This document shows positions 12,649-64,000 of a DNA stretch of 64,000 nt, in pieces. Under the pieces are notes generated by a model, which worked only from the letters and a program-made list of their open reading frames with translations, searched no databases and was not told the DNA's origin. A program made the position numbers and the translations under genes. The first letter of the stretch is position 1. Each line of letters starts with the position of its first letter. This stretch comes from Squalus acanthias (Eukaryota): positions 77,440,001-77,504,000 of the forward strand of contig CM059432.1 of NCBI GenBank assembly GCA_030390025.1, given 5' to 3'.

Positions 12649-13281
12649 TAATTTTGTAAGAGCGCATGGGAGACTTGTACACTCCTAGTATCCAGCACTT
12701 CTGTGGACTGGTGAGTATGGGGTTAAAACATATATTGTCAGTTAGCACAATGTAATCAGTCACAGAGGAATCATTTAAAAGCTAAATTTAAATTATTGGC
12801 CTAGAAATTGGGTTACTTACTGCTACCCGTTAGCGCTGGAATCCTGTAAAAAATGGTGGCTGCCGCTCTAATGCCCGCCTCTGGCGCAGGACTTGGTGGC
12901 CACCATTTTGGTGAGGGCCATAACCCTGCTGATAGCAGTGCTGGCCCTGGACATGCAAAATGGAGAGCGTGGAACGCCGACTTAATACCACACTCTGCAA
13001 ACTTGGACCTTTGCACTGAGTTCAGTGCTTGGTCCTAAGCTCGCTCTGAAAAGCGAGCGTGCAGCAGACTGACAGAGATGCTGTCAGCACTTCTTAAGGG
13101 GACACACTCATTTTTCAGGTAAGTATGCATTTCAGTTTTTGAACAGGATTTTTAAAAATTTTACTGCAGTAGTGGCTTGGTGTAATACATGTTAAAAGTT
13201 TTTTTAAGTGTGCAGAGAGTGCAGGGAGTGCTGCTGGACAATCATAAGGCCTCGGATGGTAAAGGAAGGCATCTGAGAAAA

Positions 13282-13395
13282 CAGAAAATGCTGGAAATAT
13301 TCAGCAGGTCAGGCAGCATCTGTGGAGAGAGAAACAGAGTTCACATCTCAGGTTGAGATGCTGCCTGACCTGCTGAGTACTTCCAGCGTTTTCTG
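13282..13395. repeat. 40-bp-arm inverted repeat made of Penelope-type terminal sequence, inside family C
   Basis: Arms 13282-13321 and 13356-13395; same sequence type as 55190-55270 and 43078-43140. Confidence 0.8.
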
Positions 13396-13572
13396 CTTTT
13401 ATTTCAGATTTACAGCATCTGCTTGCAGAGGGAAGAGGAAGACACAGAAGGGGGAGATGCAGAAGAGAAAGACGCAGAAGAGAAAGATGCAGAAGAGGAA
13501 GAAGCAGAAGAGGAGGAGGTGGAAGAGGAGGAAGCATGCAACCCAGACAGCCCTTTTCTGGCCGGGATATCA

Positions 13573-13879
13573 CAGAATCACAGAATCCCCACAGTGCAGA
13601 TAGAGGCCATTTCGACCCATCGAGCCTGCACCAACACATATCCCACCCTATCCCCGTAACCCCACGTATTTAATCCCCCCTAACACACTAAGGGTCAATT
13701 TATCATAGCCAAAGCAACCTAACCCACACATTTTTGGACTGTGGGAGGAAACCGGAGCACCCGGAGGAAACCCACGCAGACACGGGGAGAATGTGCAAAC
13801 TCCACACAGACAGTCACCCGAGGCCGGATTCGAACCCGGGTCCCTGGCACTGTGAGGCAACAGTGCTAACCACTATGCC
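13573..13879 (-). mobile_element. tRNA-derived V-domain (HE1-like) SINE
   Basis: B box gggttcgaatcc; V domain gtgtggagtttgcacattctccccgtgtctgcgtgggtttcctccggg; (attctgtg)n tail; absent from family C copies 2 and 3. Confidence 0.9.
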
Positions 13880-15439
13880 GGGATGGAATCATTCGCCTGC
13901 GGTGCCAGTGACCACAACCCCAATTCCCCTTTCAAAATTTGTCCCACTCCTTACCTTCCCTCTGTTACTGACCATTACAGCATCCTCCTGGCCACAATGC
14001 TGAAATAAAATCCACCACAAAGCAAATTTTCCAATCCAACCTTTTACCTCTATCATCCAATATGACATCAAGAACTTAACTCATTACCCTTGTGCATTCT
14101 CTTAGTGACTGTCTTGTGTGTGCCTTTGCCTATCCTGGTGATGTTACGCAGTGCTACCCCAGTGGCTACAGCATGGCTGGTGGAAGGCTACTGACTTTCA
14201 GTGGGGGAGACTGCAAATGGACTTGCAGGTCGACCTTGAGGAGCTGGTGGCTGGGAGTGTGAGATCGAGTGATGGTGTTCCTTCTTCTTCTTCTTCTTCT
14301 GGCTGGGCAAGCTGCATTTCTTGGGTGTCTGAAATGAGGAAGGCACAAGAGTAGAGTTGTGGTGAGGGGAGGGCGGAAAGCAAGAGGTGCATGCGAGAAG
14401 GAGAATAACGTATGAGGATACCCGCATCTTGTATCCTTTCTGCCCCGCCGCTGGCCAAGGGCTCAGCCATGCCCCTGGCAAGGATGGCCAGCAGCATCTC
14501 CTCCAAGGGGGTGAGGTATAGCTAGGAATGGGAGGTGTGCCTCGTGATTGGTACAGATTGTTGGTAGGTGTGTGATTGGGGGTTGTGCATTGAGCAGAGA
14601 GTGAGGCTAATGGTGCAGTTGGTAGGAGATGGTTTTGAAGATGCATTCACTGACCTTGATCACTGGTCTGAGGTCATGAAGCTTCTTTGGGCACTGGAGC
14701 CAGGTTGTGGGGGTGACACTGCTGGCAGTGACGGCCTTGGTGATCTGGTCCCACATCATTCTTTCTAGAGGGCCTCCTGGCCCCTGTGGGTAGAGGACCT
14801 CTCTTGCAGTGTTGACCCCCTGCACAGAGCTGGAGTGTTGCGCGCGACACGCTGGGTGCCCTTCCCTGGCTTGCTGAGCCATTTGTGTTAGTGCTAAAAC
14901 ACTTTTCCCAGTTTTTGAGGTGCAGAAGGCAATTCAGCTTTAAGAACTGAAGACTCCCATTTGGGAATTCTTTTTAACTTTTTTCAGAATGCAGTTGAAC
15001 TCTAAGGGCTAAAAACTGCTCTCTAAAATGACAACCCTGCTTTAAGAAAAGGCTGTTCTTGCTGCAATGATGCTACGGCCATGCTACTTGGGTCTCATTC
15101 TGGGACTACCGCCAAGAGAACCAGCCTTGCACAGTAAGGTTAGCACTGGGCTAATGTTAATTAGCGACCAGCACCAATTTACCGGTCCTGCCAGCAGCCA
15201 TTAACTCCGGCCCCGCAGTGGCACCGGCAGGTTTATCGCGCTCTCCAATTTTTAGCCCATACGATTTTAAAAATGTTTTTTAAATCTTTGGCTGGAACCA
15301 CCAACCAACCTAAGTTACAACAATGGTGCTGTTGCAATGAATCGCCCTCCCTCCTCCCCACCCCACCACCTGAGGTGAGGGCCACACTGGTGCTGTAAGT
15401 GACTCATCAATATCTATATTACCTTCACCCCCAAAAAAT

Positions 15440-21514: not shown

Positions 21515-24500
21515 AACTTTAAGAATGGATACAGGATCCTAGGCTTTATAAATAGAGGTGTAGAGTACAAAAGAAGAAAGTTATACTAAACCTTTATAAA
21601 TCATTGGTTAGGCCTCAGCTGGAGTATTGTGTCCAATTTTGGGCACTGAGGTCTAGAAATTCTCTGTTGTAGCGCCAGCCGTTAAGGCTGGTTTTGTTGA
21701 AAAAATTGCAGCCACCTCACTTCCACTTGCTTCCGGTGCGGGACACGCAACCACCATTTTGGTGAGGGTCATATTGCTACCGTTGCCAGCGCTGGCCTCT
21801 TAAATTTAAATGAGCAGATTGTGACGTTAATTGGCGTGCAAAACCTGATTTGATGCCACAACTGCTATTTTGGACGCCGCACGCCATAATGCCCTGTCCT
21901 AGCTATACATGGATAAACATGCATGTAGCAGTCCTGCAGAGACGCTGTCAGTGATTCTTAAAGGGACACACACATCTTTCAGATAAGTTTGGATTTTTTA
22001 AATATTTTATTGAAGTAGTGGCTTGGTGCAATACATTAAAAAAATTGTTAAAGTATGCAGAGAGTGCAGGGAGTGCTGCTGGACACTTGCAAGGCCTCGG
22101 ATGGTAAAGGAAGGCCTTTGAGAAGACAGAAAATGCTGGAAATACTCAGCATGTCAGTTAGCATCTGTGGAGAGAGAAACAGAGTTAACGCTTCAGGTCA
22201 AGATGCTGCCTGACCTGCTGAGTATTTCCAGCATTTTCTGCTTTTATTTCAGATTTCCAGCATCCACAGTATTTTGCCTCTGAGAAGACCACTTGCTCAC
22301 AGTCTTGGGGGGAACATGGAGATGAAGCAGAGGCAGCAAAAGGGACAAGCTGCTCACAGAGGGAAGAGGAGGAAGGAGAAGAGGAAGAAGCAGAAGAGGA
22401 AGACACAGAAGAGGAGGAAGCAGAAGGAAGAATGCAACCCAGACAGCCCCTTACTGGCAGGGATATCTGGGATGGAATCATCTGCCTGCGGTACCAGTGA
22501 ACACAACCCCAATACCCCTGTCAACATTTGTCCTACACCTTACCTTCCCTCTGTTACTGACCATCACAGCATCCTCTTGGCCATATTGCTGAAATAAAAG
22601 CCACCACAAAGCAAACTTTCCAATCCAACTTTATCCATATATGCATCCAATATGACATCAATAAATCAACTAATCACCTTTGTGCATTCCCTTAGTGACT
22701 GTCTTGTGTGTGCCTTTGCCTGTCCTACTGATGTCACACAATGTTACCCCAGTGGCTGCAGCATAGCTGGTGGAAGGCTGCTGACTTTCAGTGGAGGACA
22801 CTGCAGATAGCCTTGCAGGACGACCTCAAGGAGCTGGTGGCTGGGAGTGTCAAATCAAGTGACAGTGTTTCTTCTTCTTCTTCACTCTCCTCTCCCTCTT
22901 GGTCAACCTTCTTGGCTGGGAAGGTTGAATTTCTTGGGTGTCTGAAATGAGGAAGGCACAAGGGTAGGGTTGTGGTGAGGGGAGGGCAGGAAAGCAAGAG
23001 GTGCATGCTTACACCATGTGCAGCTTGTACATCAGAAGATATTGTGGGATGAGGGGGAAGTGGAATGTGAGAAGGAGGATAACGTATAAGGATACCAGCA
23101 TTTTGTATTCTTTCAGCCCCGCCGCTGGCCATGTGCTCAACCATGCCCCTGCAAGAATGGCCAGCACCGTCTCCTCCAAGAGGGTGAGGTGAAGCTAGTA
23201 ATGCGAGGTGTGCCTCATGTTGGGTATAGATTGCTGGTAGGTGATTGATGGACTGGTGGTTGTTCATTGAATAGTGTGTGAGGCTAGTGGTACAGTTGGT
23301 AGGAGATGGCTTTTGAAGAGGCATTCACTGACCTTGACCACTGGTCTGAGGTCATGAAACGTCTTTGGGCACTGGAGCCAGGTCCTGGGGGCGAAACTGC
23401 TGGCAGTGACAGCCTCGGTGATCTGGTCCAAAATCCTTCTTTCTGGAGGGCCTCCTGGCCGCTGTGGGTAGAGGACCTTTCGTCCAGTGTTGACCCCTCT
23501 GCACAAAGCTGGAATGCTGTGTGTGAGACCCTGGGTGCCATTTCCCTGGCCTGTTCTGCCATTTGTGTTGGTGCTGAAGCACTTTTACCATTTTTGTTAC
23601 ATGCAGAAGGCAGTTCAGCTTTAAGAACTGAAGACTGCCATTTTTGAATTATATTTTTAAACATTTTCAGAAGGCAGTTGAGCTCGAAGGGTTAAAGACT
23701 GCCTATTTTTAAATTATTTTATTTTATTTTAGATGGCAGTTCCCCTTTAAGGGCTCAAGACGGCTTTCTAAAATGACAGCCTAGCTTTAAGAAAACGCTG
23801 CCTCGATCCAGGAACGCTACGGCCATGCTACATTGGGCCTCCTGCTGAGCGCACCGCCTGAAACAGCTCGTTGCACAGTAGGTTCTGTGCTGCAATTATT
23901 TAAATCAGCAGGCAGCACCAAAATAACAGTGCTGCCTGCGCTCTTTTTACGGGTGCAAGTTAACCTCGCCCCGCGGTGGCACCACCCATTTTCACGGGTT
24001 ATCGGATTTCTAGGCATATATTTTAGGAAGGATGTCAAGACCTTGGAGAGGGTGCAGTGGAGATTTACCAGAATGGTACCAGGGATGAAGGACGTCAGTT
24101 ACGTGGAGAGACTAGAGAAGCTGGGATTGTTTTTCTTAGAGCAGAGAAGGTAAAGGCGATATTTAATAGAGGTGTTCAAAATTATGGAGGCTTTTGATAG
24201 AATAAATAAGGAGAAACTGTTTCCACTGGCAGGAGGGTCGGTAACCAGAGGACACAGATTTAAGACAATTGCCAAAAGAACCAGAGAGGAGATGAGATGA
24301 GATGAGGAGACTTTTTTTTACACCGTGAGGTGTTGTGATCTGGAATGCACTGCCTGAAAGGGTGGAGGAAACAGATTTAGTAGTAACTTTCAGAAGGGAA
24401 TTGGATAAATAATTGAAAAGGGAACATTTGCAGGGCTGTGGGGAAAGAGCAGGGGCTAATTGAATAACTCTTTCAAAGAGCCGGCACAGGCACAACGGGC

Positions 24501-44599: not shown

Positions 44600-45890
44600 G
44601 GCCTAGAAATCAGACATCAACAAAAACCTGCCGGTGTCACCGCGGCCTCGGGTTTACAAAAAACATTAACATTAAAAAGAATTCCCAAATAGGAGTCGTC
44701 AGCACTTAAAGCTGAATTCCCTTCCGAACCTCAAAAAATGGGAAAGGTGCATCAGAAATAACACAAATCACAAATGGCTCAGCAAGCCAGGGAAGGGGCA
44801 CCCAGGGTCCTGCATGCATCATTCCAGCTTTGTGCAGAGAGTCAACACTGCAAGACTGGTCCTCTACGCACAGGGGCCAGGAGACCCTCCAGAAAGAACG
44901 ATGTGGGACCAGATCACCAAGGCCGTCACTGCCAGCAGTGTCGCCCCCACCACCTGGCTCCAGTGCCCAAAGAAGCTTCATGACCTCACATCACTGGTCA
45001 AGGTCGGTGAATGCATCTTCAAAAGCCGTCTCCTACCAACTGCATCAGTAGCCTCACACACTGTTCAATGTACGACTCCCCCCTCCCCCACCCCATCACT
45101 CACCTACCAACAATCTGCACCAATCACGAGGCACATCTCCCATTCCAAGCCTCACCTCACCCCCTTGGCGGAGACAGTGCTGGCCAGTCTTGGCAGGGGC
45201 ATGGCTGAGCCCTTGACCAGCGGCGGAGCTGAAAAGATACAAGATGCTGGTATCCTCATACATTATCCACCTTCTTGCAAGCACCTCATGCTTTCCCTCC
45301 CTCCCCTCAACAAAAGAAATACAACCTGTCCACCCAGTGGTTGGCCAAGAAGAGGGAGAGGAGAGTGAAGAAGAAGAAGAAGAAACACCATCACTCGATT
45401 TGACACTCCCATCCACCAGCTCCTCAAGGTCGACCAGCAAGGCCATCTGCAGTCTTCCCCACTGAAAGTCAGCAGCCTTCCACCAGCCATGCTGCACCCA
45501 CTGGGGTAGCACTGCATGACGTCACTAGGATAGGCAAAGGCACACACAAGACAGTCAGTAAGGGAATATAAAAGGGCGATGAATTGATTTCTTGATGTCA
45601 TATTGCATGGATAGATGTATAAAGCTGGATTGGAAAGCTTGCTTTGTGGTGGCTTTTATTTCAGCATTATGGTCAAGAGGACGCTGTGATGGTCAGTAAC
45701 AGAGGGAAGGTAAGGTGTGGAGCTAATCTTGAAATGGGAATTGGGGTTGTGGTCACTGGTACTGCAGGCAGATGATTCCATCCCAGATATCCCGGCCAGA
45801 AAGGGGCAGTCTGGGTTGCATCCTTCCTTCTGCTTCCTCCTCTTCTGCTTCCTCCTCTTCTGTGTCTTCCTCTTCTATGTCTTCCTCTTC
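44600..45890. mobile_element. Harbinger family C copy 3, inverted, truncated at the acidic repeat
   Basis: Starts ggcctagaaatc; Myb remnant ORF 44814..45368; reverse complement of 13880-15230 and 22380-23660. Confidence 0.85.
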
Positions 45891-46518
45891 CTAGAGTTCT
45901 TTGCTATGTTGTCATGCCAACTCTTGTTATCCACTTCAGTACTATAGCCTTCATGCAGTCACCTGCAATTGAAATAAAAAACTGTATCCGGCAAAACGTT
46001 TATTTTTGTGCAAGCTATACTATGGGTTCTAGATTTTATTCATATAAAGAAATGATCACAGCATAGAATGGAATCAAAAAGCTGATCTTCTCGCTGGTCA
46101 CACTGCAATCTCCTTTGTTGTTTCAGCCCGATTTGCTGTTTATCAGCTTTTTTTTTACAAATGCTTGTCTTGCCAGGTGGTTTGCAAAGCAATACAATAG
46201 GTTCACTATTCCAGCTGTATCCTACTAATGAAAATAAGGAGTATGGTAAAAAATGAAATTCAGAGAATTGGAAGAAATTGCAAATATAGCGATATTTTCT
46301 TTTGCAAATATAACCTGTTTTCAGTTTATACCAATTTTCTATGCCTAAAGTTAGCAACTCAGTTTTATTATGTGTTTCCCAAGATTACTGTAGCAAGAAC
46401 AAGAATAATATTCTATTGCTGAGTTTTCTAATGCCTTGCGAGGGATAGACTTCATACATATGTGACTCAGAGCAACTTGAGAGAATAAACGCATTTAGTG
46501 TAACAATATTTTTGCTCA

Positions 46519-55288: not shown

Positions 55289-56066
55289 AAGGCTGTAATG
55301 AGGTTTGGAGCCGAATGGTCCTGGCGGAATCCAAACTGAACATCGGTGAGCAGGTTATTGGTGAGTAAGTGCCATTTGATAGCACTGTCGACAACACCTT
55401 CCATCACTTTGCTGATGATTGAGAGTAGACTGATGGGTAGCAATTGGCCAGATTGGTTGTGTCCTGTTTTTTGTGGGCAGGACATACCTGTGCTGTTTTC
55501 CACATTGTCGGGTAGATGCCAGTGTTGTAGCTGTACTGGAACTGCTTGGCTAGAGGCGCGGCTAGTTCTGGAGCACAAGTCTTCAGCACGGGATATTGCT
55601 GGGGTCCATAGCCTTTGCTCTATCCAGTGCACTCAGCCATTTCTTGTTATCTCTTGGAGTGAATCGAATTGGCTGAAGACTGGCCTCCATGATAGTGCGG
55701 ACCTCAGGAGGAGGCCGAGATGGATCATCCACTCGGCACTTCTGGCAGGTTATTGATAGCATTCCCACCTGTGAGTCAGAGGTGACGGGTTCAAACACTG
55801 CTCCAAACAGTCTTGGCAAGTGGAGACCAGAGCTCTGGCTCTGAATTCTGGGTTAACACCCAATGAGATACTTGCATCTGGTGTGTGTGGGTGGCCTACC
55901 ACTCATCATATGGTTTGTGGGACACCATAAAATCCTCCCCACATATAGGACTAACCACACTAACGGCTGGTATAAAAATGATGCGGAGATGCCGGTGTTG
56001 GACTGGGGTGGACAAAAATGAGAAGTCGCACAACACCAGGTTATAGTCCGACAGATTTATTTAAAA

Positions 56067-56104
56067 TTACAAGCTTTCGGAGCTGTTGCCCCTTCGTCAG
56101 GTAA
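56067..56104 (-). ncRNA. Minimal type I hammerhead ribozyme, intact core
   Basis: ttac-CTGACGA-a-ggggc-aaca-gctcc-GAAA-gc-TT-gtaa; palindromic AAGCTT in place of stem III. Confidence 0.8.
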
Positions 56105-56421
56105 AGGTACAATGAGGGAATCTACAATATTACACAGTATATAAACACAGAAAGCAATTTGTCAGGGAGGCATTACATCAAAGACACACCAGAGCACAGC
56201 CAAGACAATGAGATGGGTCACAGGGGGTCCAACGTGTCAAATCCTGCTGTCTGCAGTTGAGCTTTTAACCTTTTTTTTGGTGTTTTTTTTTAAAAACTGG
56301 AAAGACAGACAACGATGTCGAGTCACGTTGTGTAGCGTGACATGAACCCGATATCCCTATTGAGGCCATCCTCATGGGTGCGGAACTTGGCTATCAGTTT
56401 CTGCTCGATGATTTTGCGTTG

Positions 56422-56961
56422 TCATGTGTCTCGAAGGCCGCCTTGGAGAACGCTAACCCGCAGTTCCGAGGCTGAATGTCCTTGGCTGCTGAAGTGTTCC
56501 CCGACTGGGAGGTAACAATCCTGCCTGGCGATTGTTGCGCAGTGTCCGTTCATACGTTGTCTCAGTGTCTGCATGGTCTCGCTGATGTACCATGCTCTGG
56601 GGCATCCTTTCCTGCAACGTATCAGGTAGACAACGTTGGCCGAGTCACATGAGTATGTACCATGTACCTGGTGGGTAGTGTCCTCACGTGTGATGATGGT
56701 ATCTGTGTTGATGATCTGGCATGTCTTGCAGAGGTTGCCATGGCAGGGTTGTGTGGTGTCGTGGTCGCTGTTCTCCTGACAGCTGGGTAATTTGCTGCGA
56801 ACGATGGTACTTTTGAGGTTAGGCGGCTGCTTGAAGGCGAGTAGTGGAGGCGTGAGGATGGCCTTAGCAAGGTGTTCGTCGTCATCGATGACATGTTGAA
56901 GGCTGCGAAGAACAAGGCGTAGTTTCTCCGCTCCGGGGAAGTACTGGACGACGTAGGACAC
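56422..56961 (-). pseudogene. Penelope GIY-YIG endonuclease fragment
   Basis: CHGNLCKTC, YSCDSANVVYLIRC...WYISET...LRQRMNGH and VGEHF. Confidence 0.88.
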
Positions 56962-57503
56962 CTACGGACACTGAAAGACGCCCTCATAAGAACGGGATAT
57001 GACGCTCGACTCATCGATCAACAGTTCCGACGGGCCACAGCGAAAAACCACATAGACCTCCTCAGAAGGCAAACACGGGACACAACCAACAGAGTACCCT
57101 ACGTCGTCCAGTACTTCCCCAGATCAGCGGGTTAGCGTTCTCCAAGGCAGCCTTCGAGACACACGACAACGCAAAATCATCGAGCAGAAACTGATAGCCA
57201 AGTTCTGCACCCATGAGGACGGCCTCAATAGGGATGTCGGGTTCATGTCACGCTACAGAACGTGACTCGACATCGTTGTCTGTCTTTCCAGTTTTTTTTA
57301 AAAAACACAAAAAAAAACCAAAAAAAACCCAAAAAAAGGTTAAAAGCTCAACTGCAGACAGCAGGATTTGACACGTTGGACCCCCTGTGACCCATCTCAT
57401 TGTCTTGGCTGTGCTCTGGTGTGTCTTTGATGTAATGCCTCCCTGACAAATTGCTTTCTGTGTTTATATACTGTGTAATATTGTAGATTCCCTCATTGTA
57501 CCT

Positions 57504-57541
57504 TTACCTGACGAAGGGGCAACAGCTCCAAAAGCTTGTAA
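57504..57541 (+). ncRNA. Hammerhead copy with GAAA>AAAA core mutation at 57530, probably inactive
   Basis: ttac-CTGACGA-a-ggggc-aaca-gctcc-AAAA-gc-TT-gtaa. Confidence 0.7.
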
Positions 57542-57753
57542 TTTTAAATAAATCTGTTGGACTATAACCTGGTGTTGTGCGACTTCTCATTTTGGTATAA
57601 AAATGGTTCAGGTTATGAAAGGAGAATTAATGTCACAGACTGTTAATCAGCTTACGAATTCTTCCAGTACTTCACACAATTCTCCAAGGGTAGGGTGTTG
57701 AGATACAAAAATAACAACAATATATGAGTAAAAAATTAATATCATAATCCAGA

Positions 57754-59208
57754 TCAAAACAGCAAATTCAGCAAAGTGTCAAAGCCTTTGGGAGGGAGGG
57801 GAAGAAATTTGGTGAAGAAAAAGATGAGATGAGTGGTGAGGTGTTTGTTACTTATCCAGGACGGAACCAAACCTTGTTTTAAATCCTCCAAATTACTGCG
57901 GCCCTCGCCCAGTAACCACGCCCCGTAAAGCACGCACACCTCGTTCTGCGCAGCTTGATCGGATGCATTCCGATCTTCCCTAATCAGGGCATTTACCGTC
58001 TTTGCATGTTTCTCCAACTCTGCTATAATTTCCTTTAAATGGAGAGTCATGGCTTGGTCCTCGTGTAAACCTGACCCTACCACTTTATTCTCATCTGTTA
58101 GAATGTCTTTTAATTGTGTCTTTAAACCATTAATCTGGGTCTGCAGCTCCACACTGTCTAGAGCGTTGACCACAGATGTACCCGTGTTAAAAGCAGTGAA
58201 CGCATCGTTCACCAAACCCCTTCTTTGCCTCCCTGCTTGATTCAGAACTTCCTGTGGTGCGGTGTACAAACTTGTTTTATCAATTTCCGCGAAATCGAAT
58301 TCGTAAAATTGTCTGAACATCTTGGTCAACAGGACCTGATACAACTGTTCCGTCTTTTTGGGGCACCACTCTGGTAACCACACCTCGGTGAGATTTAAAA
58401 TCACCGAGGCCACCGCGTAATGTACTCCCTGAAATAGTATCTGGTCTGTGGGGACCAGTACCAAACCATTCCCGGGTCCCTTACTAGTTTTAGGGCACCC
58501 TTCTTCCTCAGCTAGAACCACCGGAATCGTGGGCGGGGCTTTGCGTGGGCACGTAATGAGCTCAGTGGCATTTACTGGGATCGGGGAGAATGGGGCTCCG
58601 CACCCCCTGGTGCTCGCATCCCACCTCATCCCCTGTCCGTTATCCTGCCATTGATTAATGAAAAATATGGAGATGCCTTTGGGGCAAACGTACTTTGACC
58701 CCCACATACATACATAAATTCCCTCGTCCGGTTCCCACCATTTGTCCCAACAGACTTTCACTTGTCCGTTTGTCCCCGTAATTGTCCGATGGGTATTATT
58801 ACCCAGTCGTTCCCACTCGACCGAAGAGTTCCTCATAGTTTTGCTCAGCTTTCGCAGCCACCACCATCGGCTCAATGGGACCTTCCCACTACAAGTCAAA
58901 CAAATCCGTTTGCCGACGGTGACGCTAATCCTGGGTGCGATGATCCTTACTTTGGGGCACATTAAAGAAGTCTCTTTGTAGGCAAACCCCGATGTGCTAG
59001 AATACTCCGTTGAGTTCGTTCCCAGCCATCCTGGCCACCTTCCCTTGTGGAAATAGGTGCTGGTCTCCTCTGCCTCCCGTCTTCCGGTCCCATCCATCGC
59101 GATGGGGGCCGTGTCCCCGGAACATCCAAACACCACGACATCCTTGGTGCGGCCTCGATAGGCCAATCCACATCCGATTGCCACGAGCAATACTAGAATT
59201 CGTTCCAT
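57754..59208 (-). CDS. env: Envelope glycoprotein: signal peptide, Ig-like domain, furin site, F-type fusion subunit; C-terminally truncated
   Basis: MERILVLLVAIGCGLA; CLTC...WWW...DEGIYVC; N-glycosylation sequons (NST, NSS, NNT, NAT, NLT, NAS); RQRR|GLVNDAFTAF followed by heptad repeats. Confidence 0.8.
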   Translation of the reverse strand: MERILVLLVAIGCGLAYRGRTKDVVVFGCSGDTAPIAMDGTGRREAEETSTYFHKGRWPGWLGTNSTEYSSTSGFAYKETSLMCPKVRIIAPRISVTVGKRICLTCSGKVPLSRWWWLRKLSKTMRNSSVEWERLGNNTHRTITGTNGQVKVCWDKWWEPDEGIYVCMWGSKYVCPKGISIFFINQWQDNGQGMRWDASTRGCGAPFSPIPVNATELITCPRKAPPTIPVVLAEEEGCPKTSKGPGNGLVLVPTDQILFQGVHYAVASVILNLTEVWLPEWCPKKTEQLYQVLLTKMFRQFYEFDFAEIDKTSLYTAPQEVLNQAGRQRRGLVNDAFTAFNTGTSVVNALDSVELQTQINGLKTQLKDILTDENKVVGSGLHEDQAMTLHLKEIIAELEKHAKTVNALIREDRNASDQAAQNEVCVLYGAWLLGEGRSNLEDLKQGLVPSWISNKHLTTHLIFFFTKFLPLPPKGFDTLLNLLF

Positions 59209-59496
59209 CCTTCCTTGGTTCCTGTGATCAGATAGAATGAGGTAGCCAGCCTCGCAAGAGTCTCTGGCTTTTGTGAAGGGTGAGCGGGTCCCCTGACCTC
59301 GCCTCACGTAAACTTCAACGTTCGCTGAATAAACTTTAACTAAACCTATCTTTAAAGCTCCCATCATTTTATCGTTTTCTGTTAAAAACACTACAATCTT
59401 AACCTTATCAAAAAACTATAAACTTAACCTTGAACTATTAACTTAAAACTTAAAACTTATAACTTTACAGTGCCGCCCGTTCTCAGGGCGGCCCCT

Positions 59497-60618
59497 TTAA
59501 ATTCTGAGAAGGCTGCTGCGAGCTCTTCCCGACGGTGGGAGGGCACTGACCCTTCCCTCTGATCTGCCGCAGCCTGTTGCTGCTGCGATGTGGCCGGCCT
59601 GTATCTGGGTTATCTTAACCTTAACTCTACGCCTTGGGGCAGTCTGGGGACATGACCACATCCTCCTGGGCTGGGGTTCTCTACTTGACCTACGGGGAGT
59701 TGCTATGGGCGGGGGTTCCGTGACGGACGGACCGGGTTCCGAGACTTCCATCGGGATGACCTGGGGTTCCATCACAGTCGCTGGCTCCGCCTCCGCTGAC
59801 TCCGCCTCCCTAACCTCGGGGCTTGCAGTTTGTGGCCCCGCCCTGCTTGGCCCAGCAGGTGGCCCTTCACTCGTGATCTCTGCCTCCCCCAAGGACGGGA
59901 CGTTCAAAGCGGGCGGCCACATCTCTGGGAGCCACACCGGTACTCTCTGTGCTCCCATAGCGGCTGGCCCTGCCTCCCCTAGCTCCTCCCTCCTGTCTTC
60001 GGGACCTGCAGCTTGTGTGTCCACCCTGTGTGGATCTCTACCTGCAGCCCCCGTCCCCTCCATATCGTAAATGGGACCGTTCCTGAGAAACCACCCGTCG
60101 TCATCACTATTCTCATCTGCACTGTCCTCATCTGACCCGGGTACCCTGAATTCTTCCTCATCTAACCCCCAATTCCAGAAAAACGCTGTCTGATCTTCCG
60201 GGATGTCCCCTCCCCTGATGCAAGCTGCTATGCCTGCCTGTGTGCCTTGTGGTCCTACCTGGGGCTGTGCTTTCCCACTGGCGGGATTTACCCCTGTAGT
60301 TTTCCCTTGCGCACCTGGCTGGTACAGTTTGCATTGGTTTACATCCTCATACTCCCGGCTTTTGGCTACCCTGTAGGCTGCTTTTATCTCTCTAAGCTGC
60401 CCTTCTAGCCTGAGCACGTCTAACTTTCCCATTGATCGGGCGTTCTCCTCCTGCAGGGCCTGCTCTCTAAGCTGCCCTTCCAGCCCATCTATTTTCCCTA
60501 TTAAGCGGGCGTTCTCCTCCCGCAAGGCCTGCTCTTTTAACCTGGCCTCCTCACCGCAGACCCCCTCCTGTGCGTGTCTTTTAAAAGGACACAGGTAGGC
60601 AGGCTGCGTGGGCTCTAG
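59497..60618 (-). CDS. Unknown ORF in frame with gag (coiled coil, acidic/Trp patch, Pro/Glu-rich, basic tail); predicted readthrough extension
   Basis: Open from the codon after the gag TGA (LEPTQPAYLCPFKRH...) to TAA at 59497; the ORF-track start is TTG, and the first ATG is about 60 codons in. Confidence 0.65.
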   Translation of the reverse strand, partial: LEPTQPAYLCPFKRHAQEGVCGEEARLKEQALREENARLIGKIDGLEGQLREQALQEENARSMGKLDVLRLEGQLREIKAAYRVAKSREYEDVNQCKLYQPGAQGKTTGVNPASGKAQPQVGPQGTQAGIAACIRGGDIPEDQTAFFWNWGLDEEEFRVPGSDEDSADENSDDDGWFLRNGPIYDMEGTGAAGRDPHRVDTQAAGPEDRREELGEAGPAAMGAQRVPVWLPEMWPPALNVPSLGEAEITSEGPPAGPSRAGPQTASPEVREAESAEAEPATVMEPQVIPMEVSEPGPSVTEPPPIATPRRSSREPQPRRMWSCPQTAPRRRVKVKITQIQAGHIAAATGCGRSEGRVSALPPSGRARSSLLRI

Positions 60619-62430
60619 TCATTGGGTACTATTAGACGGTCCTGCGGCACCTACGGGGCCGGTTGCGACCGCCACCTGTCCACGCGCATTCAAGATTAGA
60701 TTGCGCATGGCTCCTAACACTACTTCGAGGTCGTCAGGAGGGGTGGGTGCCTTAGCTTCCTTAGCCGGGACAGGCGCCTGGGCTCGGACCGCGGGATTTT
60801 TATCCTTGGAATCCTTCCAAGGGTTCCTGCAATGCTTGCGCCAGTGCCCTGTCTTCCCACACCCGTAACAAGCATTACCTGCCTGTGGGGCGCGATTACC
60901 CTCCTGATGCCACTCTCTTTGATACGGGGCTGCGGGTCGTACCTCATGTACTCTTCCCTTAAGGGGACGTGTTGCCATACCCCTTATATTGCGATATCCT
61001 AACGTGAGTCGATTCAAGACCGACTCTTCCGTAATGTTGGGGTCATTGGGATCAAACCATGCTTTTGCCTGCTCTCTGACGGCTGGTAAACTGTTGGCTA
61101 TTATGCACCTAAGCCAATGAGTTAAAGCGGTGCCTTCCACATCTTCGCGCTCTGGCGCACCTAGGCAGCTGCGCTCATAAACTGGCCACAGCCTGTCGGC
61201 AAAAACCTTCGGGGGTTCTCCCTCCATCTGCACTGTCTGTCCCACTCTAGCAAACGGACCTTCATCGTTCGCCCCCAACACTTCCAGGACCTCATCCCTC
61301 AATTCCTCATAAGTCTTGGTTCCCCTCTTGCTCTCGCCTGAGAGACACTGAAGAACCGAGCTGTCTAGTGAGAACAGCAGCATTTTTGCTGTCTCCCCAT
61401 CATCGCAGCCGTTAATGGCTGCGGCTTGCTCAACTTCTCTGAAATGTACGGAAGGGTCGTCTGACTCGGTCAGCTTCCGTACGTGATTTATCATAGCTCT
61501 CAGCTGGTGTGAGCTGTGAGGCAACACCAGCTGTCCGAGGAGATCCCCCGGTTCTTCCCCACCGTTTCTGTTTGGGCCCCTTTTAATGCCCGTTACTGGA
61601 TACAACGGTCCCTTTCCTACTTCTTTTTCAATGGGCTCTTTTGTTTCTTCCATTGCTTCCTCCCTTACCCAGGTTTCCGAATAGCTGGGTGGCGCGGAGG
61701 GCGCAGTGGCTACTACTTCTTCTGCTTTGCTTGGTGGGGATTTCTTAAACTTCTCACTTACTAGCGGCTGGTGTGCTGACGGACTGATCAGGCACACCAT
61801 GCCGTTCGCTTTGTTTACGGCCTTCTTGAGGTGCTCTATCTCCCTTTGGCAGGCGCTATGGTCGGCTCCCTCAAACTTATCCTCAAGGGCCAACTTATAT
61901 GCCGCCCTAACCCCCGTTAAGCTCTCTTCTTGAGTTCTTATCTGGGCAGCTTGGCGGTTACATCTTTCCTTTAACCTGCTCTCATTCAACTTTGCCTCAG
62001 TGACCTGGCACTCGAGATAATCTATTCTTGTTTTAAGGTGACTGGAGATTTCCTGGCTTTCTTGGTGCAACTCATTTAACTTCTTAATGAGCACTTCCCC
62101 TCCAGAAACCTTCTCATCCATTTCTCCCTCTAAATGACTGATTCGAGCTACTAGCGCTGTAATGGTCTGGTTTGAAATCTGAACCTGCCTTTTGTAACAC
62201 ATAAGCCAGACTGCTTTCTCAAGTGTCTTTCTATGTTCTTTACTATCTGTCCACCTTTCGGCTGCCTCTAGCGGGCTTTTATCCGCTAACAATTCACTTA
62301 TCCATTTCTTAGTTAAATTAACCTTTCCGAACACATAATCTGCTATCTTTTCCTGCATAACATTTCGTACAGTCATTCCAAAGTCTAACACACTACCCTC
62401 TCGCTGCCAGTGTCCTGCCGCGGTCGCCAT
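60619..62430 (-). CDS. gag: Gag polyprotein, 603 aa, intact
   Basis: Good Kozak context (aaaATGG); long coiled coil; PSAPPSY; MHR-like QMEGEPPKVFADRL; CYGCGKTGHWRKHC knuckle (60870-60829). Confidence 0.9.
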   Translation of the reverse strand: MATAAGHWQREGSVLDFGMTVRNVMQEKIADYVFGKVNLTKKWISELLADKSPLEAAERWTDSKEHRKTLEKAVWLMCYKRQVQISNQTITALVARISHLEGEMDEKVSGGEVLIKKLNELHQESQEISSHLKTRIDYLECQVTEAKLNESRLKERCNRQAAQIRTQEESLTGVRAAYKLALEDKFEGADHSACQREIEHLKKAVNKANGMVCLISPSAHQPLVSEKFKKSPPSKAEEVVATAPSAPPSYSETWVREEAMEETKEPIEKEVGKGPLYPVTGIKRGPNRNGGEEPGDLLGQLVLPHSSHQLRAMINHVRKLTESDDPSVHFREVEQAAAINGCDDGETAKMLLFSLDSSVLQCLSGESKRGTKTYEELRDEVLEVLGANDEGPFARVGQTVQMEGEPPKVFADRLWPVYERSCLGAPEREDVEGTALTHWLRCIIANSLPAVREQAKAWFDPNDPNITEESVLNRLTLGYRNIRGMATRPLKGRVHEVRPAAPYQREWHQEGNRAPQAGNACYGCGKTGHWRKHCRNPWKDSKDKNPAVRAQAPVPAKEAKAPTPPDDLEVVLGAMRNLILNARGQVAVATGPVGAAGPSNSTQ

Positions 62431-64000
62431 TTTCTGTAAGGGATTCTGACCCTGCGTGTCTCGCAGCCTGTGAGATTCACGCGGCTCTGTGCAGCCTGTA
62501 TGTCAGTGCGGGTCTAGGCCTTGTTGCCTGTTCTGGTCTCCAGCCAGTCTGGGAACACTAGACACACCTGTGAGTGGTTCGAATCACTCGCCCTTACGGT
62601 TCTAGACACTGGACTTAGATGCGAGAGCAGTAATGGAGATGAAACTCATGTAGACTCGGTTGAATGGTACGAAATGGAAAATCTTTATTGCATGATACTT
62701 AAGATTATGAAATACATGTCATAAGCACAGATTAATGACAGTACAATCTTACAAGCAGTTATATAGTCGATCTTAGGGAAACGAGGAACGAACGGCACAT
62801 AGTAAATAGGGGCACACATTACAAATATCCTTAATCCTTAAACCCTCCCCTATCAATATCTATCCTAACTAGATTCGTAGGATTTCGAGACTCATGCTCA
62901 CCACTCGTGATAACTCGGAGAAATTCCGAATAGCTGATCGGATGTTTTTCACCGCAGCACCCACGTGTCGGTCAGGAGATCTCCTGGTCCCACTTGTTTA
63001 CTTGCTTCTGCTGCTCCGGCTAGCAGGCTGGACCGTCTGCTGTGATGAAGACCTGTGTTGGTTGGTTTAACAGGTACTTTCCGAGCACAGTTGTCAATAT
63101 CATCGATGTGATATGTTCTTTGCAAGTTCGAAGAAGTCTTCCTGGCAAGGAAAACTTGGCTATTCGACCTACAGGCGCGGTCGGGATTTACTGACCGTGG
63201 CGATGGATATGGTCTTCCTCTCTTCTCATCTCATCTCATCTCATCTCGGGCCTTTGGTTCCGCTGCCAGTTACCAACATAGGTCTTCGTTACGCGACACG
63301 AGGTAGATCCGAATGGATCAGAAAGTTCAACAGTCTTTTTCAAAAAGGCAACAGGCAAGCAGGAGCCCGACTACGAGTACACAGGAGCAGCCACGAGGTT
63401 ACGAAATAAGATAAGAGCACAGGAGCAGCCACGATGATAAGAGTCGATCGGATAAGAGAAAGATGGACGGTTTGGAGCCTGCAATTATAGTGCAAAATCT
63501 TCCGTTTCCCGCCCAACCTTAATGTCCATTCTTTTGTTTAGGGTCTGGCGCTCAAATGTCTTGTATGGGTGATCTCCGTTCTTAATGGGTTTCGGGGCTA
63601 CTCGTAAATGTCTGAGTACCTGTTAATATTTCTCCCATTGTTAAATCGGTCGGTGTTCTCCCTGGAGGGGTTGTGGGGCTTCCAAGTGTTTTGTATAACT
63701 ACCTGCTAACGGCTCTCTCATCGTAGAGTCGTTGGGATTTTACATATTAATGTCTTTTGGATGGGCCCTTGATTACTCGGTACAATAGCTTTCATTTGTA
63801 CCTGGGAGACCGATTTCAGTATTTATGTGTATACTGCAAACCCATAATGTCTCGTGTATTATCTTCACTGTGCTGAATCTTAATCGATCTTGCACAAATG
63901 TTTATTGGAACGCCATCTTGTCTGCCTGTTGAAAAGTCTAGAATGTTCTGTCACGAGGTGCGGCGGCCATTTTACAGGCTGCTTGTGTCCACTTTAAACC

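What the first reader, a model, noticed from the sequence alone, without database searches (positions are those of the whole stretch)
60567..60624. Gag stop lies in a UGA-CUAG readthrough context, in frame with the next ORF
Seen on minus: CAA TGA CTA GAG CCC..., then 373 sense codons in the same frame. A candidate hairpin (cctgtgtc-cttttaaaa-gacacgcacagg) starts about 23 nt downstream. Known: UGA-CUAG is the best-characterised leaky stop context in vertebrates, and gamma/epsilon retroviruses make Gag-Pol by readthrough (of UAG). Inference: a Gag-X fusion of about 977 aa is made at a low ratio, so the Pol-packaging mechanism has been reused to load a different cargo protein. The ORF track hides this by starting ORF X at a TTG.
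Basis: partly seen in the sequence, partly recalled or inferred. Interest (0 to 1): 0.82.

Follow-up and report, generated by a model that had tools for sequence, protein, structure and literature searches.

The report
Leaky stop kept by pol-less retrovirus
In a young, many-copy endogenous retrovirus of a shark-like fish that has lost its enzyme genes, the gag gene still ends in the same stop signal that relatives with enzymes carry in frame between gag and pol, and the frame behind it, mostly the leftover tail of pol, stays open, so ribosomes likely read through the stop and that likely helps the element spread.

Summary
In detail: gag (603 codons), TGA CTAG, then 373 open codons. The element is a young pol-less ERV (LTR-gag-X-env, over 800 copies). 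Pol-bearing relatives in this genome have TGA in 43 of 43 copies (CTA next in 41), with protease in frame and its first AUG too late, so gag-pol readthrough is very likely. I found no UGA-CUA retroviral site in print; UGA junctions with other contexts are known. ORF X is no foreign cargo: it is pol codons 1-19, a Gag-like coiled coil and the integrase tail. Its frame is conserved (14 of 14 shared indels in frame; 0 shared stops, about 10 expected), its residues mostly are not (N/S about 1). A second pol-deleted family from a distant Gag lineage independently kept TGA CTAG and an in-frame path to the same tail. The hairpin has no compensatory support. Readthrough itself is untested. Best reading: readthrough translation to the old pol stop helps the element in cis, as in mouse IAP I-delta-1. 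This scan earlier noted ORF X as a pol remnant on other copies; the readthrough analysis and second family were not in the notes I saw.

The parts
62435..64000 (-). 5' LTR (in-window part; it starts about 64090, about 1.65 kb, TG...CA) shared with a tandem copy just outside the window; holds the env splice donor near 62901
   Evidence: joint
62412..62429 (-). Primer-binding site complementary to a host tRNA-Arg(TCG); overlaps the gag start codon
60622..62430 (-). gag, 603 codons: N-terminal coiled coil, capsid-like helical region, one CCHC knuckle
   Evidence: Atlas neighbours Retrotrans_gag/zf-CCHC at 0.95; N/S 0.34-0.44 among shared variants; AlphaFold model low confidence
60615..60621 (-). 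TGA CTAG: inherited gag-pol stop and readthrough context
60567..60595 (-). Candidate 7-pair stem (+24..+30 with +46..+52); role unproven
60562..60618 (-). ORF X codons 1-19: start of pol (spacer before the protease and the probable protease N-terminal cleavage site, inferred); one extra base near codon 17 relative to pol puts the insert in frame
60343..60561 (-). ORF X codons 20-92: Gag-like coiled-coil insert with a 23-codon duplication; nearest to the Gag of an older related family (67% DNA)
59497..60342 (-). ORF X codons 93-373 and stop: the C-terminal tail of Pol after the integrase C-terminal domain, ending at the native pol stop
59656..59694 (-). Short basic motif RRSxRxPQP(R/K)xxW, the most conserved part of the tail in all families
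57839..59220 (-). env (acceptor at 59221/59220, ATG 59208), broken at 57839 in this copy by unrelated repeat sequence; about 780 codons in unbroken copies

Best explanation
The TGA CTAG is the gag-pol stop of this retrovirus lineage, kept by a helper-dependent derivative that lost protease, RT and integrase; a few percent of ribosomes likely read through it and would make a 977-residue Gag fusion ending in the old integrase tail, and the element likely gains in cis from translating that frame to the old pol stop rather than from a new cargo protein. Shown: the stop and context are shared with pol-bearing families, X is a pol remnant plus a Gag-like insert, and its frame is conserved while most residues are not. 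Inferred: readthrough in pol-bearing copies (about 0.9), readthrough into X (about 0.75), and a cis benefit such as protection of the unspliced RNA from nonsense-mediated decay or preferential packaging of the translated RNA (about 0.4 of all readings; the tail-protein reading is the first rival).
For: Pol-bearing copies found by a protein query: TGA in 43 of 43, then CTAG 22, CTAA 19, other 2; a more distant pol-bearing family has TGA CTG in 7 of 7. 10 of 18 pol-type loci in a hand-picked sample have 1494-1511 open codons right after the TGA. The first pol AUG is codon 24, after the start of the Pfam protease match (residue 17) and 12 residues before DTG; codons 2-23 keep their residues with synonymous changes while codon 1 stays CTA in 59 of 61. 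ORF X is full length in 53 of 60 position-picked copies; 14 of 14 shared indel clusters are in frame against 3 of 13 in the X-env spacer; shared stops 0 against 10.3 expected, private 0 against 7.2, while the two other frames show 15 and 6 shared stops. 110 of 113 X loci reach the tail in frame over six multi-copy and three single-copy junction types; a microhomology-guided switch would be in frame 40-45% of the time. N/S is 1.08 in X, 0.44 in gag, 0.18 in env. A second pol-less family with a Gag only 42-48% identical keeps TGA CTAG in 30 of 30 and joins protease, RNase H/integrase fragments and the tail in one 363-377-codon frame; three of its copies share an in-frame deletion that removes the basic motif. 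Precedents read: UGA-CUAG supports efficient readthrough in reporters (PMC4132726, passages); readthrough protects long-3'UTR mRNAs from NMD (PMC5360307, passages and two sections); the IAP I-delta-1 gag-pol fusion works in cis (PMC6466679, passage).
Against: No ribosome, protein or reporter data. In-frame indels and lack of stops in the tail may partly be inherited by recombination with helpers, where the tail is translated (the 39-nt duplication occurs in both). About 4 kb of env and U3 still follow the X stop, so readthrough clears only a fifth of the 3' region, and PMC5360307 shows that longer 3' regions need more readthrough. The second family's own statistics are weak: 1 shared stop against 2.7 expected, 2 of 4 shared indel classes in frame. 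The insert shows some amino-acid constraint (dN/dS 0.23-0.69 in nine non-independent pairs; 0.71, not significant, within the family) and the basic motif is conserved, which fit a protein role better. Within family A the stop context is hardly better kept than its neighbour.
Confidence: 0.55

Rival explanations
1. Readthrough occurs and the selected product is the protein: Gag-X enters particles, the helper protease would cut it at the retained site before codon 11, and the freed piece (coiled coil plus integrase tail with a basic motif) would act as a chromatin tether or nuclear-import aid.
For: RRSxRxPQP(R/K)xxW is the most invariant stretch of the tail in all four groups and in a tail from another organism, with different synonymous codons between families. 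Insert dN/dS below 1 in between-family pairs. Frog and coelacanth Pol relatives end 10-17 residues after the integrase C-terminal motif (5 proteins), so the 230-300-residue tail is a lineage-specific addition. Tethering by integrase tails is known (Ty1, MLV: search listing only); likeness of the motif to nucleosome-binding motifs is recalled, not tested.
Against: Particles must carry helper Pol, which already has the tail. The second family lacks the coiled coil, and three of its copies lack the motif. N/S about 1 over the tail; motif conservation in pol-less copies may be borrowed from helpers.
Confidence: 0.25
2. Relic: the signal and open frame are inherited from pol and refreshed by recombination with helpers; readthrough may occur but brings the pol-less element nothing.
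For: Family is very young (LTR pairs 99.3-99.9% identical); tail variants are shared with helpers; N/S about 1; context no better kept than its neighbour.
Against: Non-homologous junctions that exist only in pol-less elements are in frame: six multi-copy types in X families (0.45^6 about 0.008) and four joins in the independent second family; insert constraint.
Confidence: 0.12
3. ORF X is made from its own mRNA: splicing to the CAG/G at codon 17-18 and initiation at the AUG of codon 40 or 63, independent of the gag stop.
For: The change from pol near codon 17 creates CAG/G after a pyrimidine-rich stretch; an in-frame AUG lies at codon 63 in 81 and codon 40 in 28 of 117 loci.
Against: In most family-A loci the first AUG downstream is out of frame (75 of 117 at nt 130); another AG lies 11 nt upstream of the candidate acceptor (sequence); codons 1-39 are open in 116 of 117 loci; the second family has no such insert; four runs showed the env joint (one contig) and no joint into X, though contigs cannot show absence.
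Confidence: 0.08

Closest known systems
Gag-pol stop codon readthrough in gamma- and epsilonretroviruses and unclassified fish/frog retroviruses (MoMLV, WDSV, SnRV UAG-GGC; SSSV UGA-AGA, ZFERV UGA-CGA, cane toad ERV UGA-AGU; PMC13517186, passages) and XtERV-S (in-frame TGA; PMC8278194, passages)
   Same: gag and pro-pol in one frame, split by one stop after the zinc knuckle and before the DTG motif
   Different: Context is UGA-CUA/CUG, not among the retroviral contexts listed in that review; no MLV-type pseudoknot seen; here also kept in elements without pol. The bases after the XtERV-S TGA were not seen.
Type II (UGA-CUA) readthrough of alphaviruses and PSIV, and UGA-CUAG of vertebrate OPRL1, OPRK1, AQP4, MAPK10 (PMC13517186, PMC4132726; passages)
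   Same: Identical stop and tetranucleotide; a possible stem downstream
   Different: Those are measured, this is not; the stem starts at +24 and lacks compensatory support
Mouse IAP I-delta-1 (PMC6466679, passage; the primary paper PMC2413153 was not held)
   Same: Non-autonomous, internally deleted ERV whose deletion keeps an in-frame gag-pol fusion; highly successful; fusion reported to act in cis
   Different: I-delta-1 deletes part of gag and makes the fusion constitutively; here gag and env are whole, the fusion hangs on a leaky stop, and it arose at least twice
Pol-less Gag-encoding ERVs Bik-1 (zebrafish) and ENS-1 (chicken) (bioRxiv 10.1101/2024.03.25.586437, passages)
   Same: Young, helper-dependent, Gag with N-terminal coiled coil
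   Different: They are described with a single Gag ORF; no readthrough frame or env described in the passages read
Lokiretroviruses (PMC7947760; part 1 of text, passages, supplement searches)
   Same: Coiled-coil Gag, tether plus RNase H, env with RxRR site and F-like look (F likeness recalled; no Pfam hit)
   Different: Paper does not list cartilaginous fish as hosts; their 'smc' is annotated fused ahead of gag-pol, so it is not ORF X; RT here is about 50% identical to frog and coelacanth ERVs and 34% to the one loki-like hit

Membership tests
Retroviral gag-pol readthrough junction | Single in-frame stop between gag and pro-pol, fixed across copies | tested here: met
   TGA in 43 of 43 and 7 of 7 pol-bearing loci; 10 of 18 with about 1500 open codons behind it
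Retroviral gag-pol readthrough junction | No usable own start for Pol; codons after the stop under purifying selection | tested here: met
   First AUG codon 24, inside the protease match; synonymous variation in codons 2-20
Retroviral gag-pol readthrough junction | Measured readthrough or Gag-Pol protein | not testable with these tools
   No ribosome or protein data
Type II (UGA-CUA) readthrough signal | UGA followed by CUA (or CGG) | tested here: met
   CTA in 41 of 43 pol loci, 836 of 848 family-A matches, 30 of 30 second-family loci; CTG in two other families
Type II (UGA-CUA) readthrough signal | Downstream stimulatory stem-loop supported by covariation | tested here: inconclusive
   Stem kept in X copies and as a bulged form in 43 of 43 pol loci, one-sided changes only; one pair broken in 7 of 7 of the distant pol family; z mostly above -2.5. 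Counts were partly fixed by my search anchor.
Non-autonomous ERV with in-frame gag-pol remnant (IAP I-delta-1-like) | Enzymatic pol deleted, LTRs/PBS/TSD intact, amplified | tested here: met
   No pol in 20 fetched stretches; 4-bp TSD in 3 of 5 examined, 2 cut off; over 800 matches
Non-autonomous ERV with in-frame gag-pol remnant (IAP I-delta-1-like) | Remnant frame kept open | tested here: met
Non-autonomous ERV with in-frame gag-pol remnant (IAP I-delta-1-like) | Fusion acts in cis on mobility | not testable with these tools
   Needs experiment
New accessory (cargo) gene | Origin outside gag/pol and amino-acid constraint | tested here: not met
   Pol- and Gag-derived; N/S about 1; only related hit in 1.84 billion representatives is another Pol tail
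Retroviridae-type or loki-type Pol | PR-RT-tether-RNase H-IN | tested here: met
   Pfam; best PDB matches MLV/XMRV RT, then foamy, then Ty3
Snakehead-retrovirus-like ERV | RT groups with SnRV | tested here: inconclusive
   No labelled SnRV row; shark rows sit in an unresolved group with frog, coelacanth and turtle ERVs (38 rows; 6 short hits left out). Arg PBS met (SnRV's Arg primer is recalled).
Lokiretrovirus | RT groups with lokiretroviruses | tested here: inconclusive
   The one loki-like row (my label) is a long branch of unsure place; 34% identity

The most novel reading that the evidence does not exclude
This cartilaginous-fish retrovirus lineage makes Gag-Pol with an alphavirus-type UGA-CUA(G) signal, and its pol-less parasites are repeatedly forced to keep that leaky stop and an open frame to the old pol stop: readthrough has a second, enzyme-independent job (RNA survival or delivery of an integrase-tail tether) that is exposed by two independent natural deletion experiments, each amplified to many copies.
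Probability: 0.5. Interest if true: 0.7.

Novelty: new variant of a known kind. Interest (0 to 1): 0.52.

Why it matters
Readthrough in fish retroviruses has not been verified experimentally and its signals are unclear (PMC13517186, section 4.1.2 passage). Here thousands of copies in several families give a natural mutagenesis of one junction and point to a type II signal, not listed for retroviruses in that review. The pol-less families separate readthrough from enzyme supply: if the frame is kept with no enzyme to make, recoding has a cis role in the retroviral life cycle, a question raised by IAP I-delta-1 and by NMD reporter work. A short reporter can test it. It is not a new cargo system.

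Tried and rejected
Idea that X is the lokiretrovirus 'smc' gene: rejected; smc is annotated ahead of gag-pol and X maps to pol's ends. Frameshift at the TTTAAAA run: not needed, the frames agree, and the run is absent in the other families. Pfam, PDB, representative and Atlas searches gave no family for X; a search for the insert's donor among public proteins found none. Relatives in viral and metagenome contigs: none, so the DNA after the stop in other species was not seen; two outside Gag proteins end at the same position. Sequencing runs: no RNA holder listed; four runs laid as contigs cover the element and one shows a GT-AG env joint, RNA status guessed. AlphaFold of Gag was too poor to search (pLDDT 49). 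My first stem and junction tallies used anchors that fixed codons 9-10 and, for X, the 3' arm; I redid them without anchor and rely on that. One published loki consensus has TGA then CTA after gag, but its annotated pol starts in another frame: not used as evidence. Papers on SnRV (PMC190236) and IAP I-delta-1 (PMC2413153) were not held. Not-in-print claim rests on searches (open-access library only) and the review's table; subscription papers, Repbase notes and unseen supplements may describe this junction.
Full report
Observation. On the minus strand a 603-codon gag (ATG 62430) ends CAA TGA CTA GAG CCC (TGA 60621-60619) and 373 sense codons follow in frame, then env. The fusion length of 977 is right. 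The proposed hairpin folds at +24..+52 but is only modestly better than shuffles (z -0.5 to -2.4).

The element. It is LTR-PBS-gag-X-env-LTR, about 9.3 kb, with 1.65-kb LTRs 99.3-99.9% identical and no pol in the 20 stretches fetched. It has TG...CA ends, 4-bp target duplications (3 of 5 examined, 2 cut off) and a tRNA-Arg(TCG) primer site overlapping the gag ATG. In this copy env is broken at 57839. One contig of a run guessed to be RNA shows a GT-AG joint from 62901 to 59220, the env splice. The nearest named Gag is from a skate (51%), so the host is a cartilaginous fish (inference).

The stop is the gag-pol junction. Searching the genome with the skate Gag gave 74 loci. Mapped without a motif anchor, 43 are pol-bearing and all have TGA, followed by CTAG (22), CTAA (19) or another base set (2); 31 are X-bearing, 29 with TGA, mostly CTGG. 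A more distant pol-bearing family has TGA CTG in 7 of 7. In 20 loci hand-picked from 2167 pattern matches, 18 were pol-type and 10 of these have 1494-1511 open codons right behind the TGA. That frame encodes protease, RT, tether, RNase H and integrase. Its first AUG is codon 24, inside the protease match, and codons 2-20 vary synonymously while codon 1 is CTA in 59 of 61. A splice into codon 1 is unlikely because 19 loci lack the AG. Readthrough is thus the plain reading for Pol (about 0.9, inferred). A 2026 review lists UGA-CUA as the type II signal of alphaviruses and gives other contexts for retroviruses, including three UGA cases; it says readthrough in epsilonretroviruses is unverified (PMC13517186, passages). 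XtERV-S also has an in-frame TGA (PMC8278194, passages). UGA-CUAG alone gives efficient readthrough in reporters (PMC4132726, passages). Searches showed no retroviral UGA-CUA case.

What ORF X is. Codons 1-19 are the start of pol; one extra base near codon 17 puts the next piece in frame. Codons 20-92 are a Gag-like coiled coil (probability 97.7 against the Gag alignment; 67% DNA identity to an older family's gag). Codons 93-373 are the tail that follows the integrase C-terminal domain, 79-92% identical in DNA to five pol-bearing copies and ending at the same stop. Five frog and coelacanth Pol relatives end 10-17 residues after that domain. So the cargo is pol's own tail. The scan noted this on other copies (e1-7807165, e1-9902137); I reached it first.

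Is the frame selected? In 60 copies picked by position (of 848), X is full length in 53 and gag in 37, the latter count including copies cut by the fetch window. Shared indel clusters are in frame 14 of 14 in X, 3 of 3 in gag, 3 of 13 in the X-env spacer. Shared stops in X are 0 against 10.3 expected, private 0 against 7.2; the other two frames have 15 and 6. Amino acids are barely constrained: N/S 1.08 for X (insert 0.71, tail 1.20) against 0.44 for gag and 0.18 for env. The tail is also loose in pol-bearing pairs (0.61-0.98 against 0.07-0.14 for RT). Between families the insert gives 0.23-0.69 (nine non-independent pairs). Of 117 X loci, 113 had a tail match and 110 reach it in frame, across six multi-copy and three single-copy junction types; chance under microhomology is 0.40-0.45 per junction. 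Against this, tail variants are shared with helpers, so part of the signal may be borrowed, and within the young family the stop context (836 of 848) is kept about as well as a neighbouring hexamer (836 of 855).

A second, independent case. A search with a distant Gag found 12 loci, 5 of a different pol-deleted family. Its Gag is 42-48% identical to ours; after TGA CTAG (30 of 30) come a shortened protease piece, an RNase H-integrase linker piece, an integrase piece and the tail, all in one frame of 363-377 codons. Four of six fetched copies carry env; LTRs are 97-99% identical. It is older and its statistics are weak: no stop among column-commonest codons (15 and 20 in the other frames), N/S 1.06, 1 shared stop against 2.7 expected, 2 of 4 shared indel classes in frame. 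The common element of both families is not a cargo but an open path from the leaky stop to the old pol stop.

Hairpin. Without anchors, the seven pairs are kept in 59-60 of 60 and 30-31 of 31 X loci and in a bulged form in 43 of 43 pol loci, with one-sided changes only; one pair is broken in the distant pol family and the second pol-less family has a deletion there. Predicted pair probability is 0.89 in X and 0.18 in pol. Its role is open.

Mechanism. Most likely a few percent of ribosomes read through and run to the old pol stop, and the element gains in cis. This fits frame without residue constraint, two different fillers, three copies sharing an in-frame loss of the motif, helper Pol already supplying the tail, and the IAP I-delta-1 precedent (PMC6466679, passage). 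NMD protection by readthrough is documented (PMC5360307, passages and sections 15 and 19), but about 4 kb remain behind the X stop, which weakens it. The main rival is a protein role for the tail: RRSxRxPQP(R/K)xxW is conserved in all families with differing synonymous codons. Relic and own-AUG readings are less likely.

Classification. Pol is retrovirus-type; best solved matches are MLV/XMRV RT, nearest public proteins are frog and coelacanth ERVs at about 50%. The tree (38 rows) does not name the clade. Lokiretrovirus and SnRV-like membership are unresolved (PMC7947760: first part, passages, supplement searches; PMC4422223: first part; PMC12440569, PMC10435555, 10.1101/2024.03.25.586437, 10.1101/2024.07.05.601823: passages).

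Verdict. Observation confirmed; readthrough well supported by comparison but unmeasured; 'different cargo' not supported. New variant of a known kind, interest 0.52.

Noticed in passing
window 62412-62430 (-): The tRNA-Arg(TCG) primer site overlaps the gag ATG; related copies carry two alternative Arg primer sites, which changes Gag residues 3-6.
   Followed up: partly
window about 58700-58950 (-): Env has an immunoglobulin-like stretch near its N-terminus (weak PDB matches to antibody and JAM domains, E 0.7-0.9); a GPxxG-VL and RQRR region behind it looks like an F-type fusion protein (recalled; no Pfam hit).
   Followed up: no
window 64090 upward; G000 C8 and C5, C3 loci: Copies often lie in tandem sharing one LTR (7.7-kb period), including mixed arrays of pol-less and pol-bearing junctions a few kb apart.
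   Followed up: partly
window 56012-57596: An element with 98% inverted arms and a 179-codon ORF (Penelope GIY-YIG look, recalled; no Pfam hit) sits just past the env break.
   Followed up: no
window 59370-59460 (-): T-rich tract right after the X/pol stop (43% T), variable in length among copies; an in-frame upstream AUG leader of env at 59370 shows no constraint.
   Followed up: partly
L226:3334-4425 and L236-L271: Second pol-deleted family with its own in-frame readthrough ORF; two of six fetched copies also lack env.
   Followed up: yes
L221-L223; G000 C26 about 39-42 Mb: Hundreds of tRNA-Arg(TCG) genes in 1.6-kb tandem arrays with tRNA-Ser (426 matches).
   Followed up: no
L047, L049: Copies with internal inversions in env or LTR.
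   Followed up: no
window 13194-14866, 22039-23497, 44791-45891: A further multi-copy repeat of about 1.6 kb with a GA-rich tract occurs three or four times in the window.
   Followed up: no
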